In this document: positions 1-59,260 of the stretch, piece after piece
How positions within the stretch are numbered: position 1 is the stretch's first letter
Layout of the letters: every line of letters begins with the position of its first letter
NCBI GenBank assembly: GCA_964016885.1
Contig: OZ024740.1
Coordinates: 365,862,001-365,926,000 of the forward strand
DNA length: 64,000 nucleotides
Source: Eledone cirrhosa
Taxonomy: Eukaryota
Direction of reading: 5' to 3'
The notes under the pieces: model-generated
Databases searched by the model: none
What the model saw: the letters and a program-made list of their open reading frames with translations, nothing else
Told to the model about the DNA's origin: nothing
Position numbers and translations under genes: made by a program

Positions 1-248
1 CCCTTCCTAACACCAACCTCATTTACAGTGGGTGCTGGGTGCTTTTTTGCCGTGGCACCTCCACGACCACTTTGCAGTGGAATGATATGGACCCTAGTCC
101 CTATCATCTCATTTCTACAGCTGAGCAAACTGGAGCAATGTGAAATAAAGTGTCTTGCTCAAGGAAACAACACATCACCTGGTCTGAGAATTGAACTCAC
201 AACCTTTCGATTGCAAGGCCAATGCTCTAACCACTAAGCCATGTGCCC

Positions 249-250
<2 letters not shown>
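1..250 (-). mobile_element. tRNA-derived CORE-type SINE with RTE-like tail (truncated by window edge)
   Basis: Minus strand: A box TGGCTTAGTGG, B box GAGTTCAATTC, CORE-like CCTTGAGCAAGACACTT; highly similar to copy 59835-60181. Confidence 0.8.
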
Positions 251-332
<82 letters not shown>

Positions 333-333
<1 letters not shown>

Positions 334-600
334 ATTGTTTCTACTTTTGGTACAAGGCCAACAATTATCCCAGTGCATTACTAGTACTTTATTTTATCGA
401 CCCCGGCAGTGGCGGTGGGTTGGCAGTATCGGTAGAGGGTCAGACGCCATGCTTTGACGCATAGAGTTACGGCCCTTGCCATTCTGAGTTCAAATCCCGC
501 CGAGGTTAACTTAGCCTTTTATCCTTACGGGGTCGATAAAATAAAGTACCAGTAATGTACCGGGTCATTGCTGGTCTTGTGCCAAAAGTAGAAACAATTA
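333..600. mobile_element. Inverted pair of Nin-type tRNA-derived SINEs (3' fragment on minus strand 333-405; full copy on plus strand 411-600)
   Basis: A box TGGCAGTATCGG, B box GAGTTCAAATCC, Nin-like GCCTTTTATCCTTACGGGGTCGATAAAATAAAGTACC, tail gtgccaaaagtagaaacaatt. Confidence 0.8.
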
Positions 601-617
601 TATATATATATATATAT

Positions 618-1093
618 TTCGTTTCTGAATTTGTTTAGCAAGATTCTTTATCTGAAAACGTGTGTTGAAACCGATATTGTTATACTTTGGGAGGCTCATG
701 TTGCCAATAAGAAACACACGCACCAGTTGCTTTCACTCCAATTTATTATAAATTAAATTTATAATTTTAAGAAATTTGTCAATTTCCGGTTGGTTGGTTC
801 CACAACCGGACGGTTGTTCATATATTGTAAAAGTTCTTTCGTCACACATTCTGGACAGAACAAAGGAGAGGCACAAAACAAATAAAAGAATCCCCAGTCA
901 CTGAAGAGGTCACAGTATGTGTGACGAAAGAACTTTGACAATATATGAACAACCGTCCGGTTGTGGAACCAACCAACCAACCAGAAATTTACAAATTTCT
1001 TAAATTTATAAATTTAATTTATAATAAATTGGAGTGAAAGCATGGTGCGTGTGTTTCTTATCGGCAACATGACCCTCCCAAAGTATAACAATA
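618..1093. mobile_element. Foldback element, probable inverted pseudo-LTR remnant of a Penelope-like element
   Basis: About 180-bp inverted arms (~674-853 / ~913-1093) flanked by (TA)n; hammerhead motif at the centre; related copy at 58607-58966. Confidence 0.65.
896..940 (+). ncRNA. Type I minimal hammerhead ribozyme motif
   Basis: gtca-CTGAAGA-g-gtcaca(gtatg)tgtgac-GAAA-g-aa-c-TT-tgac: catalytic core CUGANGA/GAAA/UH, 6-bp stem II, stem I gtca/tgac, minimal stem III. Confidence 0.6.
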
Positions 1094-1358
1094 TATATAT
1101 ATAGGAAATGGTAATTTAAACATGTGCTTTGATATCTTCTTCACTACCTCTTACGTTATGTTGACAAGATGTGTCCCCAGCTGGTCAGTAGTTTAGCAAC
1201 AACTATCTACCCATATGTCTATCTAGCTTTGGACAATAAAAAAAATCTAACTACATACCTATGTGTCTACCTGTCTCTCTATCTGTCTCTCTGTCAATAT
1301 TTCATTCTCTCTGCCTGTCTCTCACTCTTCCGTTATAACTGTTTGTTTATCTATCTAT

Positions 1359-2025
1359 CATCCTTCCAAGAGGACGTGTCCAAGATGCGCGCAGGACATT
1401 GAAACAGTCCTGCACGCAATTGTACACTGCCCGGGCGTAACCGACCTGTAGAACTACGCAGAACAACTGCTGTCGCGTATGTGACAAATCCACTTGACTG
1501 CCGAGTCCATAGTAAGGATCAAACCGCCAGCCTCTTTCAAAAACGAAAGAGAGCCGGTTTTCCTCTGTACGTGGCTATGGTGAAAGAAGTTATATGGTGG
1601 ACGAGATTGAGACGACTGAGGACAGATGCCTTTCTCTCCGAACAACAATTGATTCCCTTCTTTAAGTATCACTTTAGAAGGAGAATCGGGGTGGAGAGAG
1701 AGGCACTGCACCCCAGTAAATTTACTGAAAGGTGGGTGAATGAAGCGAAAATGTCCCGAGTGATTGGGCTTTCTCTGTTTATAAGCCTGTAGGTTGAGGA
1801 AGAGAGCAAAAGGAAGAAAGGAGCACTTTCACAACACGCTCCTGGAGTTGAGGGTTGTTCTATCGACGGGGTATTAAACAACCCATTTGTGGCGCCTCCC
1901 CCCTATTGGGCATTTCGATTGTTGTAATTGTTTGTTTTTATATTTTTTACACGACTGTATGTAAAATCCCCGGCATGTCTTTGTATTGTCCCCTTTTCTT
2001 GTGCGCCCTTGTGGCTAATAAAGAA
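1359..2025 (+). mobile_element. Tx1/L1-clade LINE 3' fragment (decayed), copy 1
   Basis: Encodes TCPRCAQDIETVLHAIVHCP (zf-RVT-type CCHC) and EVIWWTR; has stops and frameshifts; ends AATAAAGAAA followed by tatctatct. Confidence 0.75.
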
Positions 2026-2038
2026 ATATATCTATCTA

Positions 2039-2935
2039 GAGACTCCACTTCGACATTCTATAGAGGGTTAGTACGTCACAAGAGCGACGACGTGCACAGA
2101 GAGACTCTAGGCGTCGAAGACGACGAACTCACCAGTCTGTTTGGTAGGACTTTCCGCCCGGGACCTATGGACAACTTCCAGAGGTCCCTGGCCTGTCAGT
2201 GTTACCGAGGAGCTCAACTAGTTCGAGACAAGATCTACAGGCACGGATGCCCCGTCAGGGATCCTTCCAAGAGGACGTGTCCAAGATGCGAGCAGGACAT
2301 TGAAACCGTCTTGCACGCAATTGTACACTGCCCGGGCGTAACCGATCTGTGGAACTACGCAGAACAACTGCTGTCGCGTATGGGACAAATTTAGTTGACT
2401 GCCGAGTCCATAGTAAGGATCAAACCGCCAACTTCTTTCAAAAACGAAAGAGAGGCGGTTTTCCTCTGTATAGTGGCTATGGTGAAAGAGGTTATATGGT
2501 GGACGAGATTGAGACGACTGAGGACAGATGCCTTTCTCTCCGGACAACAACTCATTCCCTTCTTTATGTACCACTTTAGAAGGAGAATCAGAGTGGAGAG
2601 AGAGGCACTGCACCCCAGTAAATTTACTGAAAGGTGGGTGAATGTAGCAAAAATGGCCCGAGTGATTGGGCCTTCTCTGTATATAAACCTATAGGTTGAA
2701 GAAGAGAGCAAAAGGAAGAAAGGAGCACTTGCACAACACGCCCCTGAAGTTGAGGGTTGTTCTATTTATTCTATCTATTGTATTAAACAACCCATTTGTG
2801 CCCCCCCTCCCTATTGGGGATTTCGATTTTAAAATTTGTTTGTTTCAATATTTTTACACGATGGTATGTAAAACCCCTGGCATATGTCTCTGTTTTGTCC
2901 CCTTTTCTTGTGCGCCATTGTGGCAAATAAAGAAA
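2039..2935 (+). mobile_element. Tx1/L1-clade LINE 3' fragment, copy 2 (longer)
   Basis: ORFs 1855..2394 and 2395..2694 join across one TAG (CAC in copy 1); CPRCEQDIETVLHAIVHC...IWWTR...FTERW; ends AATAAAGAAA+(TCTA)n. Confidence 0.8.
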
Positions 2936-3287
2936 TCTATCTATCTAGAATAAATAAATAAATAAATAAATAAATAAACAAATAAATAAATAAATAAATA
3001 TATCTATCTAGATGTGTATTTACCAATGTATCGATCTTCGGTCAAGAACAAAATTAACAACAAACCCCACCAGCAGTCTGAAGATAGATAGAACGAAGTC
3101 ATCATAATTTAGTGGATATATGTTTAATAAAGATTATAGAAAATATGGAAGAAAATTATTGTAACTAATTTATCAACGTAAAATGAAATACAACAATGGC
3201 CGGAGTAACAACATGGTTAAGAATAATCGATGATTCAAGGATCTTTACAGACAATGTTTTTACTATAAACCCCTTCGTTTTATATAA

Positions 3288-3370
3288 TCTACAAATATAG
3301 ATTTGTTGCAATTTTCTGAAGAAACAAAATATCATTTATTTCGACCGTAAAACAACGGGTTATATACTAG
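3288..3370 (+). mobile_element. Possible tiny non-autonomous Helitron
   Basis: A|TCTACAAATATA 5' end; subterminal hairpin CCGT-aaaaca-ACGG; 3' CTAG|T. Confidence 0.4.
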
Positions 3371-3377
3371 TAAATAA

Positions 3378-3800
3378 TAACTGTTTCTACTTTAGGCACA
3401 AGGCCAGCAATTATCCAGTGCATTACTGGTACTTTATTTTATCGACCCCGTAAGGATGAAAGGCAAAGTCAACCTCGGCGGGATTTGAACTCAGATCGTA
3501 AAGGGACGTAACTATGCTGCAAAGCATGGCGTCCGACCCTCTACCGATACTGCCAACCCACCGCTAGTAAATAATAACAAATAGTTAAAAGACAAGTCTC
3601 CTCAATCCTCATGATTATGGATTGGCAGTATCAGTAGAGAGTCGGACGCCATGCTTTCCAGCATAGTTACGTTCCTTTACGATCTGAGTTCAAATCCCGC
3701 CGAGGTTAACTTTGCCTTTCATCCTTACGGGGTCGATAAAATAAAGCACCAGTAATGTACTAGGTAATTACTGACCTTGTGCCAAAAGTAGAAACAATAA
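3378..3800. mobile_element. Head-to-head pair of Nin-type SINEs (3378-3565 minus, 3619-3800 plus)
   Basis: Both match the 411-600 family. Confidence 0.8.
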
Positions 3801-3899
3801 TTTTTAATAACAAGAAAGATAACTCTTAGTATGATTTATGTACCTTGCTTTTTTTGTTGATGGCAACATTTATGCAATGTTCCTGTTGATACAATTAAC

Positions 3900-4180
3900 G
3901 AAACGAAACAGCCTGTTCGTGAAATTAACGTGCAAGTGGCTGAGCATTCCACAAACACGCGTACCCTTAACGTAGGTCTCAGGGAGATTCAGCGTAACAC
4001 AGAATATGACAAGTCTGGCTCTTCGAATTACAGGCATTACTCATTTTTGCCAGCTGAGTAGACTTGAGCAACGGGAAATAAAGTGTCTTGCTCAAGGACA
4101 CAACGCACCGCTGGGAATCGAACTCATGACTTTACGATCGGGAGCCGAATACCCTAACCACAAAACTATGCGCCTTCACT
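3900..4180 (-). mobile_element. tRNA-derived CORE-type SINE, second subfamily
   Basis: tRNA-like head (B box GAGTTCGATTCC), GTGTCCTTGAGCAAGACACTT core; body also seen at ~56755-56880. Confidence 0.7.
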
Positions 4181-4194
4181 GGCAACATTTATAT

Positions 4195-4410
4195 AATAAT
4201 GAAAATTATTGTGTACACTGCTCAGGTGCACTACAACTCACCAAACGTGCATGTATAGTACATAAAATAATGTACAAATGTCAGGAAAGTGAACAGTGTA
4301 TGAATTATGATATACACACAGATACATATGTGCATGTGTATGGTATGGAGGAGGAATATCAGGTGTAGTGTTGGCAAATTTCGGGAAACATGGAAGTTTT
4401 GAAGGATGCA
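4195..4410 (-). mobile_element. CR1 LINE 3' end fragment
   Basis: Matches 49516-49725. Confidence 0.75.
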
Positions 4411-5609
4411 TTTCACATATTTTAGGACTTAGCAATCTGTGGATCGATTATAACAGTCCGTATCAATATACAACAATACTTCATGTTTATTTTATGATTT
4501 ATTGAGGCATTTCGATGATTTGAAATTATTATAGAAATGTTGAAATCCAAACGCAAATTTACAACGACAATACTGTTAAAAAACGGGTAAAATATCCCTA
4601 GTGACAGAAAATAAGTGGCCTCATATTTTCAGCCCTGAAGAATATTTTATCTAATTTTCTCAAACCATTATCATTGTAGTAAATCCGTGTTTGGATTTCA
4701 ACCTAATTTCACTTCATGTTGAGTATAAATATATTTTAGTAAAATTATTTTACACACATTTTATTGGTAATTTCAAATATATCCCAATATTTTCCTGACA
4801 AACTATATTGTTTAAAGTCTTTTAGTATATACCAAATATAGCTGTCAAATTCTCATAATGGAGTTTCATCATCGTCTAAAGTCCATCTTCCACACTAGCA
4901 TGTGTAGGACGAGCTGTCACTTTGTGAGAGATCAGATCAGAGGATCATGTTTTACTCACACAGGGCTGATTTTGGCTTGGTTTCCGCAGCTGAATGCCCT
5001 TCCTAACGCCAACCACATTTACAGTGTGTACTGGGTGCTTTTTGTCATGACACTTACACCACTTTACAGCATATAGGTTTATGTATATGAATGTATATAT
5101 GGTCAACTTCCTAAGTAAACATGCTTCACTGAAGAGATCTAATAAGAATAAAACATGTCTGTTGATTCCACCAAGATGGTTTACAGACAAGGTCCACTCC
5201 CACTGCAAGTGTTGACTAAATATTTATGTAATGTGTGTTTAATGTTAGGAAGTGCATCCAGCCAAAGAAAGCTTACCAAACAAAGGGTTTGGAGGTCCCT
5301 TCAGTTTGAGTCAAAAGAAACGATAACTTCTCCGCTGCACTCAATCTGACCACATGTAAGTGAGAGACCCCATCGGCGTGTCTGGGACATCAGTGGCCCC
5401 GCTTCAGTATTGACTTGGTCTATGTAGACCCGCCCAACCCTTGCTAGCAGGTAAAACGGATGTTAAACGATAATAAAATGTACAATTGTTTCTACTTTTG
5501 GCACAAGACCAGCAATTACCCAGTACATTACTGGTACTTTATTTTATCGATCCCGTAAGGATGAAAGGCAAAGTTAACCTCGGCGGGATTTGAACTCAGA
5601 TAATAAAAT

Positions 5610-58162: not shown

Positions 58163-59260
58163 TATATATATATATATATATATATATACAAATATACAAA
58201 TATATATATACAAATATACAAATATATATATATATATATACAAATATACAAATATATACATATATATACATACAAATATATACATATATATATACATACA
58301 AATATATACATATATATACATACAAATATATACATATACACAAATATATATATACATATACACAAATATATATATATATATACAAATATATATACACAAA
58401 TAAATATATATATACACAAATATATATATATACAAATATATATACACAAATAAATATATATATACACAAATAAATATATATATACAAATATATATACACA
58501 AATAAATATATATATACACAAATAAATATATATATACAAATATATATACACAAATAAATATATATATATATATATACACATATATATACAAATATATATA
58601 TATATATTTCGTTTCTGAATTTGTTTAGCAAGATTCTTTATCTGAAATCGTGTGTTGAAACCGATATTGTTATACTTTGGGAGGGTCATGTTGCCAATAA
58701 GAAACACACGCACCAGTTGCTTTCACTTCAATTTATTATATATTTATAAATTTACAAATCTACAAACTTATAAATTTCTGGTTGGTTTGTGACGAAAGGA
58801 CTATGACTCTATATATAAACAACTATCTGGTTGTGGAACCAACCAACCAACCAGAAATTTATAAGTTTGTAGATTTGTAAATTTATAAATATATAATAAA
58901 TTGAAGTGAAAGCAACTGGTGCGTGTGTTTCTTATTGGCAACATGACCCTCCCAAAGTATAACAATATATATATATATATATACACATATATATACAAAT
59001 AAATATATATATATATACAAATAAATATATATATAAATATATACAAATAAATATATATATATATATATATACAAATAAATATATATATATATATATATAT
59101 ACAAATAAATATATATATATATATATATATACAAATAAATATATATATATATATATACAAATAAATATATATATATATATATACACACACACAAATAAAT
59201 ATATATATATATATATATATATTTGTATATATATATATATGTACACACATATACACACAC
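58163..59260. repeat. Complex (TA)n/ACAAAT low-complexity arrays flanking the second foldback element
   Basis: Seen directly. Confidence 0.9.
58607..58966. mobile_element. Second copy of the Penelope-like foldback element (centre truncated)
   Basis: Same left end tttcgtttctgaatttg and right end ccaaagtataacaat as 618-1093; keeps only the hammerhead 3' half tgtgac-GAAA-ggac-TA-tgact (58788-58808). Confidence 0.7.

What the first reader, a model, noticed from the sequence alone, without database searches (positions are those of the whole stretch)
618..1093. Foldback element family carrying a hammerhead ribozyme (Penelope-like inverted pLTR or retrozyme-like), inserted in (TA)n
Seen: ~180-bp inverted arms; at the centre a complete type I hammerhead core (stem I gtca/tgac, CUGAAGA, one extra G, 6-bp stem II, GAAA, minimal stem III, CUU triplet). 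The left arm carries only the 3' half of the ribozyme, so the inversion point lies inside stem II. Downstream of the ribozyme come an AATAAA and an ATG that opens [28 protein letters not shown], cut off by (TA)n. Known: Penelope-like pLTRs carry minimal hammerheads and often form inverted ends. Inference: this may be an undescribed octopus PLE-derived, self-cleaving, (TA)n-targeting family rather than a DNA MITE.
Basis: partly seen in the sequence, partly recalled or inferred. Interest (0 to 1): 0.75.

Follow-up and report, generated by a model that had tools for sequence, protein, structure and literature searches.

The report
Mirror-image stump of octopus Neptune retrotransposon
This fold-back with a hammerhead-shaped RNA motif is a short, mirror-image copy of the end of a very abundant Penelope-type jumping gene whose intact parent is in the same genome; the layout is a known one, and its fixed one-long-one-short ends suggest the enzyme likely copies one RNA twice, once from each cut strand of a TA repeat.

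Summary
618-1093 is two 5'-truncated ends of a Penelope-like retrotransposon joined back to back in (TA)n, with a minimal type I hammerhead at 897-939. The parent exists: intact copies have pLTR - 1228-aa ORF starting [11 protein letters not shown] (RT, CX4CxxC linker, GIY-YIG with CCHH; Neptune type by motif) - pLTR. The genome holds 16,573 exact matches to the ribozyme's 3' half. It is not a MITE, retrozyme or self-copying fold-back: the inner junction differs between insertions. Inverted pLTR, one-sided tail, hammerhead and TA targeting are published PLE traits. Extras seen here: 64 of 64 inverted insertions have one tailed and one untailed end; both ends fall on the element's only two AATATCG motifs, 60 nt apart, overlapping (TA)n by ATAT; arms share rare variants (16 of 55 pairs versus 2.6% between insertions). 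This favours twin priming on one RNA. 5' ends pile up before a YY1-like motif, not at the ribozyme cut. Stem III is non-palindromic, unlike 8 of 8 relatives; cleavage is untested. This scan reported the same design in other octopus PLE families before. New family of a known kind.

The parts
599..617 (.). Left (TA)n target; its last ATAT (614-617) also matches the element's long end
   Evidence: 95 of 106 long ends are followed by a (TA)n-like 12-mer
614..673 (-). PLE 'tail': 60 nt of ORF start between the two AATATCG motifs (ORF nt 22 and 82), present on this arm only
   Evidence: runs on into the ORF in intact copies
674..853 (-). Left arm: inverted 5'-truncated pLTR starting inside hammerhead stem II
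616..699 (-). First 28 codons of the parent ORF ([11 protein letters not shown]...KRN; Thr at position 2 in the parent)
853..1094 (+). Right arm: sense pLTR, 5'-truncated just after the YY1-like motif, ending at the short (untailed) end; G853 is shared by both arms
   Evidence: 92-94% identical to pLTRs of ORF-bearing copies L061 and L064, 97.5-98.3% to L013 and L008
897..939 (+). Minimal type I hammerhead motif; predicted cut after 935; non-palindromic stem III (AGAACU); private A-to-T change in loop II at 916
1023..1028 (+). AATAAA in an AT-rich stretch; role untested
1069..1094 (+). ORF start codon and first codons (MTLPKYNNI) up to the short end
1091..1103 (.). Right (TA)n target; ATAT 1091-1094 also matches the element's short end
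   Evidence: 93 of 96 short ends are followed by a (TA)n-like 12-mer
58608..58967 (.). Second, independent fold-back insertion of the same family with the same outer ends and a different inner junction

Best explanation
618-1093 is a non-coding insertion made of two 5'-truncated 3' ends of an autonomous Penelope-like retrotransposon, joined back to back in a (TA)n repeat, and it was likely built by twin priming on one RNA. Shown: the parent (pLTR - RT + GIY-YIG ORF - pLTR), the hammerhead motif in the pLTR, two fixed outer ends 60 nt apart, variable inner junctions. Inferred steps: (1) the pLTR promoter likely starts RNA about 340 nt before the long end, just ahead of a YY1-like motif; (2) the endonuclease would nick both strands of (TA)n; (3) each 3' end would pair by about 4 nt (ATAT) with one of the two AAUAUCG sites in the start of the ORF and prime cDNA, one site each; (4) the two cDNAs stop independently and are joined end to end, giving an inverted repeat with a tail on one side. 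Because copying starts near the 5' end of a monomeric transcript, most products are stumps like this; only read-through of tandem copies would give full elements. The hammerhead is likely a weak, dimer- or protein-dependent ribozyme that does not set the ends of insertions. My odds: identity as PLE stump 0.97, Neptune type 0.85, twin priming on one template 0.7, ribozyme cleaves under some condition 0.5.
For: 6 of 14 fetched candidates (L062-L067) have an uninterrupted ORF from MTL(P/S)KY to ...NITTYN, and 8 of 14 show the hammerhead in both flanking pLTRs. P0001 has SMDVVSLYP, EGAAIG, YVDD, CIDKKCITC, VYSIRC-x4-C-x6-YVGET, EHW, HAKIEH; Pfam RVT_1 in 18 and GIY-YIG in 10 of 53 aligned relatives at E<=0.1; the model (pLDDT 87.5) matches group II intron RT and telomerase RT. 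64 of 64 tail-to-tail pairs in 140 loci have one long and one short end, 50 of them from loci not chosen for the tail, where ends overall are 87 long to 84 short. In 45 simple pairs the short arm reaches further 5' in 22, the long in 13, equal in 10, so neither arm is a copy of the other. Four apparently solo short-ended copies carry a 10-25-nt inverted tail fragment at the 5' side (L187, L189, L220, L227). Arms share rare variants in 16 of 55 pairs against 2.6% of 6,825 between-insertion comparisons; arm-arm divergence 3.0% against 7.3%. AATATCG occurs twice in 4,100 nt (0.4 expected), at both ends. 5' ends: 15 of 61 and 10 of 42 fall in one 30-nt bin, against 0/0 and 4/3 in the bins either side. 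Two internal RT start sites defining the tail, extension of both strands and a predicted dimer are reported for the anole element PAc (PMC11167929, parts 1-2 read).
Against: No biochemistry and no RNA data here. Variant sharing between arms could come from gene conversion in palindromes, and 39 of 55 pairs share no rare variant. PAc starts RT at a site not homologous to the cut DNA and shows no start-site difference between strands (PMC11167929), so primer pairing and one-site-per-strand are not shown in vitro. The 5' pile-up lies next to a CA-rich stretch and could be an RT pause or an alignment edge rather than a start site. TSDs cannot be read inside (TA)n. Neptune type rests on motifs, not on a tree. 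Pfam found nothing on the full-length protein and RVT_1 is below its curated cut-off on the RT part.
Confidence: 0.85

Rival explanations
1. Same parent, but the mirror forms by fold-back self-priming: one cDNA (or antisense RNA) snaps back and copies itself, and later central deletions make the arms unequal.
For: Arms share rare variants; 10 of 45 simple pairs start within 20 nt of each other; short palindromes sit at some 5' ends; self-priming was proposed in PMC3846280 (passages read).
Against: A snap-back from the tailed cDNA cannot give an untailed arm that reaches further 5', seen in 22 of 45 pairs, by kilobases in L061 and L063-L065; a snap-back from the untailed cDNA cannot make the tail. 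Tiny tail-only arms fit an aborted second priming.
Confidence: 0.1
2. A non-autonomous fold-back or retrozyme family that is transcribed as a hairpin or circle and copied as a unit.
For: Very high copy number of short pieces; retrozymes derive from PLE pLTRs (10.64898/2026.07.22.740005, part 1 of 5 read).
Against: Inner junctions vary from tens of bases to full length; no head-to-tail array of short hammerhead units here; 1 of 42 5' ends in the tail-selected set lies within 5 nt of the cut; all sequence is colinear with the parent's 3' end.
Confidence: 0.03
3. A DNA MITE with long terminal inverted repeats.
For: Inverted arms and TA flanks.
Against: Ends are asymmetric (tail on one side), arms are the 3' end of an RT-endonuclease ORF, many copies have no second arm, no transposase parent.
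Confidence: 0.01

Closest known systems
Insertion units of endonuclease-positive Penelope-like elements, Neptune/Nematis type (PMC8557442: introduction, passages, supplement searches; PMC3846280: passages)
   Same: Single RT + C-terminal GIY-YIG ORF with CCHH and CX2-5CxxC linker; pLTRs containing the ORF start; adjacent inverted 5'-truncated copy; tail often on one end only; microsatellite targets; Asn-rich low-complexity insert in the ORF.
   Different: Tail is 60 nt rather than 30-40; one-tail rule is strict here (64 of 64); both ends sit on the same 7-nt motif. Marker peptides of this protein were not found in the PMC8557442 supplement.
Minimal type I hammerheads of metazoan PLE pLTRs (PMC4209133, parts 1-2 of 4 read)
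   Same: [quoted passage not shown]
   Different: Loop III is not palindromic in the three main subfamilies (AA or GA); the palindromic form makes 34 of 16,573 matches. Low sequence variability within the family.
PAc, Poseidon element of Anolis carolinensis (PMC11167929, parts 1-2 of 4 read)
   Same: Two fixed ends inside the start of the ORF delimiting a tail; AT-rich target; hammerhead not marking ends.
   Different: Different clade; PAc start sites are not homologous to the cut DNA, whereas here both overlap (TA)n by ATAT; start sites at ORF nt about 22-26 and 82-86 rather than 111-118.
Hydra-1_Obim and Naiad_Obim of Octopus bimaculoides (PMC8557442 supplement rows)
   Same: Octopus PLEs with (TA)n preference; Hydra-1_Obim has a listed hammerhead.
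   Different: Other clades: Hydra lacks CCHH, Naiad has an N-terminal endonuclease; sequences shown differ from P0001.
L1 twin priming and YY1-set transcription start (PMC2912911, passages)
   Same: Both target ends prime on one RNA; YY1-type motif just inside the 5' end.
   Different: In L1 the second site is variable and the arms do not overlap; here both sites are fixed and the arms copy the same stretch.

Membership tests
EN+ Penelope-like elements | Single ORF with RT and GIY-YIG endonuclease | tested here: met
   weak I-TevI match E=0.21
EN+ Penelope-like elements | CCHH motif with two Cys between GIY and YIG | tested here: met
   VYSIRC-x4-C-x6-YVGET at 1124, EHW 1155, HAKIEH 1172; C581, Y588, C592, Y604, G606 invariant in 53 sequences
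EN+ Penelope-like elements | Direct pLTRs flanking the ORF, inverted 5'-truncated copy, optional tail | tested here: met
EN+ Penelope-like elements | RT groups with PLE/telomerase RTs in a tree | not tested
   No named reference PLE proteins among tool-supplied sequences; fold search lists telomerase RTs at ranks 2-4
Neptune/Nematis clades | C-terminal EN with CX2-5CxxC linker | tested here: met
   CIDKKCITC at 1102; definition from PMC8557442
Neptune clade | Placement in RT phylogeny (Neptune versus Nematis) | not tested
   Motif does not separate the two; Neptune is itself paraphyletic in PMC8557442
Hydra clade | No CCHH; CxCX5C linker | tested here: not met
   CCHH present, linker is CX4CxxC
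Naiad clade | N-terminal endonuclease | tested here: not met
   Endonuclease is C-terminal
Metazoan PLE minimal hammerhead | Intact core, extra nt 9/10.1, G10.1-C11.1, 4-5-bp stem I | tested here: met
   same design in 8 of 30 scorable relatives, 0 antisense, 0.0 expected
Metazoan PLE minimal hammerhead | Palindromic stem/loop III for dimer folding | tested here: not met
   AGAACU here; palindromic in 34 of 16,573; isolated dimer duplex +2.4 (AGAACU), -1.7 (AGGACU), -4.8 (AGUACU) kcal/mol
Hammerhead ribozymes | Site-specific self-cleavage | not testable with these tools
   Needs an assay
Non-LTR retrozymes | Head-to-tail tandem short units, each with a hammerhead | tested here: not met
   No such array at this locus nor in the sampled copies
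MITEs | Fixed length, symmetric TIR ends, transposase parent | tested here: not met

The most novel reading that the evidence does not exclude
Penelope-like elements make their mirror-image insertions by obligatory two-site twin priming: both strands of a cut (TA)n each pair with one of two built-in AAUAU docking sites 60 nt apart on a single RNA, so every inverted insertion has exactly one tail; and in this family the hammerhead has lost its dimer palindrome and works, if at all, only with the element's protein.
Probability: 0.55. Interest if true: 0.55.

Novelty: new member of a known kind. Interest (0 to 1): 0.3.

Why it matters
As an object the locus is ordinary: one of many thousand dead stumps. 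Its value is mechanistic. How PLEs form inverted pLTRs with a one-sided tail is stated as open in PMC8557442 and only partly answered in vitro (PMC11167929). This family offers intact ORFs, a simple (TA)n target, two defined start sites and a strict one-tail rule, which makes a twin-priming model directly testable. It also shows a minimal hammerhead kept on a successful lineage without the palindromic stem III, a natural test of protein-assisted cleavage. For annotation: such fold-backs should be filed as PLE ends, not MITEs or microRNA-like hairpins.

Tried and rejected
Rfam scan of 1-5000 at E<=10: no hammerhead model matched. Pfam on ORF pieces and on the full protein: nothing. Idea that the neighbouring fold-back 324-608 is a SINE mobilised by this PLE (its end resembles the short end): rejected, most copies are single-orientation and several show ordinary target-site duplications. 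Hammerhead cut as the 5' boundary: 1 of 42 in the tail-selected set; the hammerhead-selected set cannot test it. The 5'-end cluster at -473 to -471 (6 cases) is an artefact of a short internal duplication and was not counted as ends. A-to-G excess in the window's arms: none against L008 and L013. RNA: no RNA holder listed. A source locus for two arms 39 kb apart was not found among 40 scored hits. Folding of the RNA around the two start sites failed (slice out of range) and was not repeated. Counts dropped: 13 duplicate loci; pairs with an arm lacking a scorable end (L014, L028, L060, L191, L200); L205, which is 3'-to-3'. Seven literature searches showed no description of this family or of twin priming for PLEs; subscription papers and Repbase/Dfam are not covered, and the family may be there. 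The supplement of PMC13282606 was listed but not read; bioRxiv supplements are closed.

Full report
Observation. The arms are real: 674-853 pairs with 913-1094, with 8 differences in 177 aligned positions. The hammerhead motif is at 897-939 as described, with the cut predicted after 935. A descriptor finds it once in the window and never in 50 shuffles; Rfam misses it. In isolation it folds with stems I and II; in a 345-nt pLTR context of a sister copy stem II has probability 0.96 or more, stem I about 0.25, stem III about 0.01. The quoted peptide joins two readings: MTLPKYNNI on the right arm and MSLPKY...KRN on the minus strand of the left arm.

Family and parent. A search of the own genome with 854-1000 gave 686 candidates and copies 95-98% identical; a 31-nt pattern for the 3' half of the ribozyme has 16,573 exact matches and 0 control matches, a lower bound since the window copy itself has a loop change and does not match. 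Longer copies run upstream into a GIY-YIG ORF end, and one runs from the tail into an ORF start. Protein searches with both ends pointed to long open frames. Of 14 fetched, 6 have an uninterrupted ORF from the start peptide to the stop and 8 have the hammerhead in both pLTRs. P0001 (1228 aa) carries RT motifs, a CX4CxxC linker and a GIY-YIG domain with CCHH. Its closest named relative is an Octopus vulgaris hypothetical protein at 69%, which with the 3.0-Gb genome points to an octopus host (inference). The RT-EN model (pLDDT 87.5) matches group II intron and telomerase RTs; RVT_1 and GIY-YIG appear weakly across the alignment. By the definitions in PMC8557442 this is Neptune or Nematis type; no tree was made. 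It is not Hydra-1_Obim or Naiad_Obim.

Anatomy of insertions. Mapped on single natural copies, outer ends are fixed at two places and inner junctions vary from tens of bases to full length. In 140 loci, 64 of 64 back-to-back pairs with two scorable ends have one tailed and one untailed end; 50 come from loci not chosen for the tail, where ends are 87 long and 84 short, so independent choice would give about half same-type pairs. 95 of 106 long and 93 of 96 short ends are followed by (TA)n-like DNA. Both ends lie on AATATCG, which occurs only twice in 4,100 nt of the sense strand, at ORF nt 22 and 82 (0.4 expected), so each end overlaps the target by ATAT. Either arm can be the longer (short 22, long 13, equal 10 of 45), junctions show 1-11-nt overlaps (21), flush joins (10) or inserts (14), and four seemingly solo copies have a tiny inverted tail piece. 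Arms of one insertion share rare variants in 16 of 55 pairs, against 2.6% between insertions; gene conversion is not excluded.

5' ends. They cluster in one 30-nt bin about 316-345 nt before the long end (15 of 61 and 10 of 42), just before CAAGATGGCG, which resembles the YY1 site that sets L1 transcription starts (PMC2912911 passages). I read this as the pLTR start site (inferred; a pause at the adjoining CA-rich stretch is possible). Only 1 of 42 ends in the fair set lies within 5 nt of the ribozyme cut. The window's right arm begins just after this motif; the left arm stopped inside stem II.

The ribozyme. Among about 190 aligned copies, subfamily-level variation touches 0 of 34 constrained and 3 of 9 free positions (loop II, loop III, cleavage nucleotide; Fisher p=0.007; background 27 of 231). 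The classes were set after seeing the table and many loci were picked by this motif, so this is modest evidence. Independent support: of 80 metagenome loci with relatives, 30 had enough DNA past the endonuclease; 8 have a sense hammerhead of the same design with different stems, 0 antisense, 0.0 expected. All 8 have a palindromic stem III insert, as PMC4209133 describes; this family does not (34 of 16,573 palindromic), and its dimer helix is predicted weak. Published minimal PLE hammerheads cleave poorly or need the protein, and cleavage was not needed for insertion in vitro (PMC4209133, PMC11167929). Activity here is untested.

Mechanism. Shown: parent, fixed ends, one-tail rule, variable junction, TA flanks. 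Inferred: nicking of both strands of (TA)n, priming at two AAUAU sites of one RNA, independent stops, end-to-end joining. Fold-back self-priming fails on arm lengths and the tail; retrozyme and MITE readings fail on structure.

Novelty. Inverted pLTR, one-sided tail, hammerhead and microsatellite targeting are published (PMC8557442, PMC3846280, PMC4209133); PLEs are a known part of octopus genomes (PMC13282606 and PMC8967140, passages; neither mentions ribozymes). Seven paper searches found no account of this family or of PLE twin priming, within an open-access library. A sequence look-up in this scan's notes found nothing, but word and place look-ups show the same design and the two-site, one-RNA idea noted before for other octopus families; my reading was written down earlier (notes), and those notes are not counted as support. 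Verdict: new member of a known kind, interest 0.3.

Noticed in passing
window 324-608: A tRNA-SINE-like repeat with an inverted copy of its 3' end, between TA repeats, directly left of the finding. Other copies are mostly single with target-site duplications; likely a 5' inversion of an ordinary SINE. Its end resembles the PLE short end over about 17 nt.
   Followed up: partly
window 1360-2040 and 2261-2950: Tandem copies about 900 nt apart (94% identical) of what looks like the 3' end of a non-LTR retrotransposon ORF.
   Followed up: no
L233:617-1810 and L234:8444-9581 (G000:C1, 39 kb apart): One tailed and one untailed arm, both with the rare palindromic stem III, share 1,138 nt at 99.65% in inverted orientation, including about 720 nt of other repeats upstream of the element: possible 5' transduction, PLE-linked inversion or assembly artefact; no source found.
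   Followed up: partly
L074:1805-1865 (minus strand), absent from the window copy: Upstream of the 5'-end pile-up lie CCGGATGT and GCGCATGCGC, downstream CAAGATGGCG: ETS-, NRF1- and YY1-like motifs (ETS and NRF1 names recalled; YY1 from PMC2912911), the layout of a TATA-less promoter. Copies starting at the pile-up would lack the upstream motifs.
   Followed up: partly
protein P0069: An Octopus vulgaris 'dynein regulatory complex subunit 6-like' isoform matches 20% of the RT-EN query at 80% identity: exonised element or gene-model error.
   Followed up: no
P0001 residues about 245-440: Long Asn/Thr/His-rich in-frame insert before the RT, like the Asn-rich inserts of rotifer Penelopes (PMC3846280).
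   Followed up: no
L201, L209, L218: Insertions with nested small inversions and duplications at the 3' UTR start, suggesting repeated template switching.
   Followed up: no
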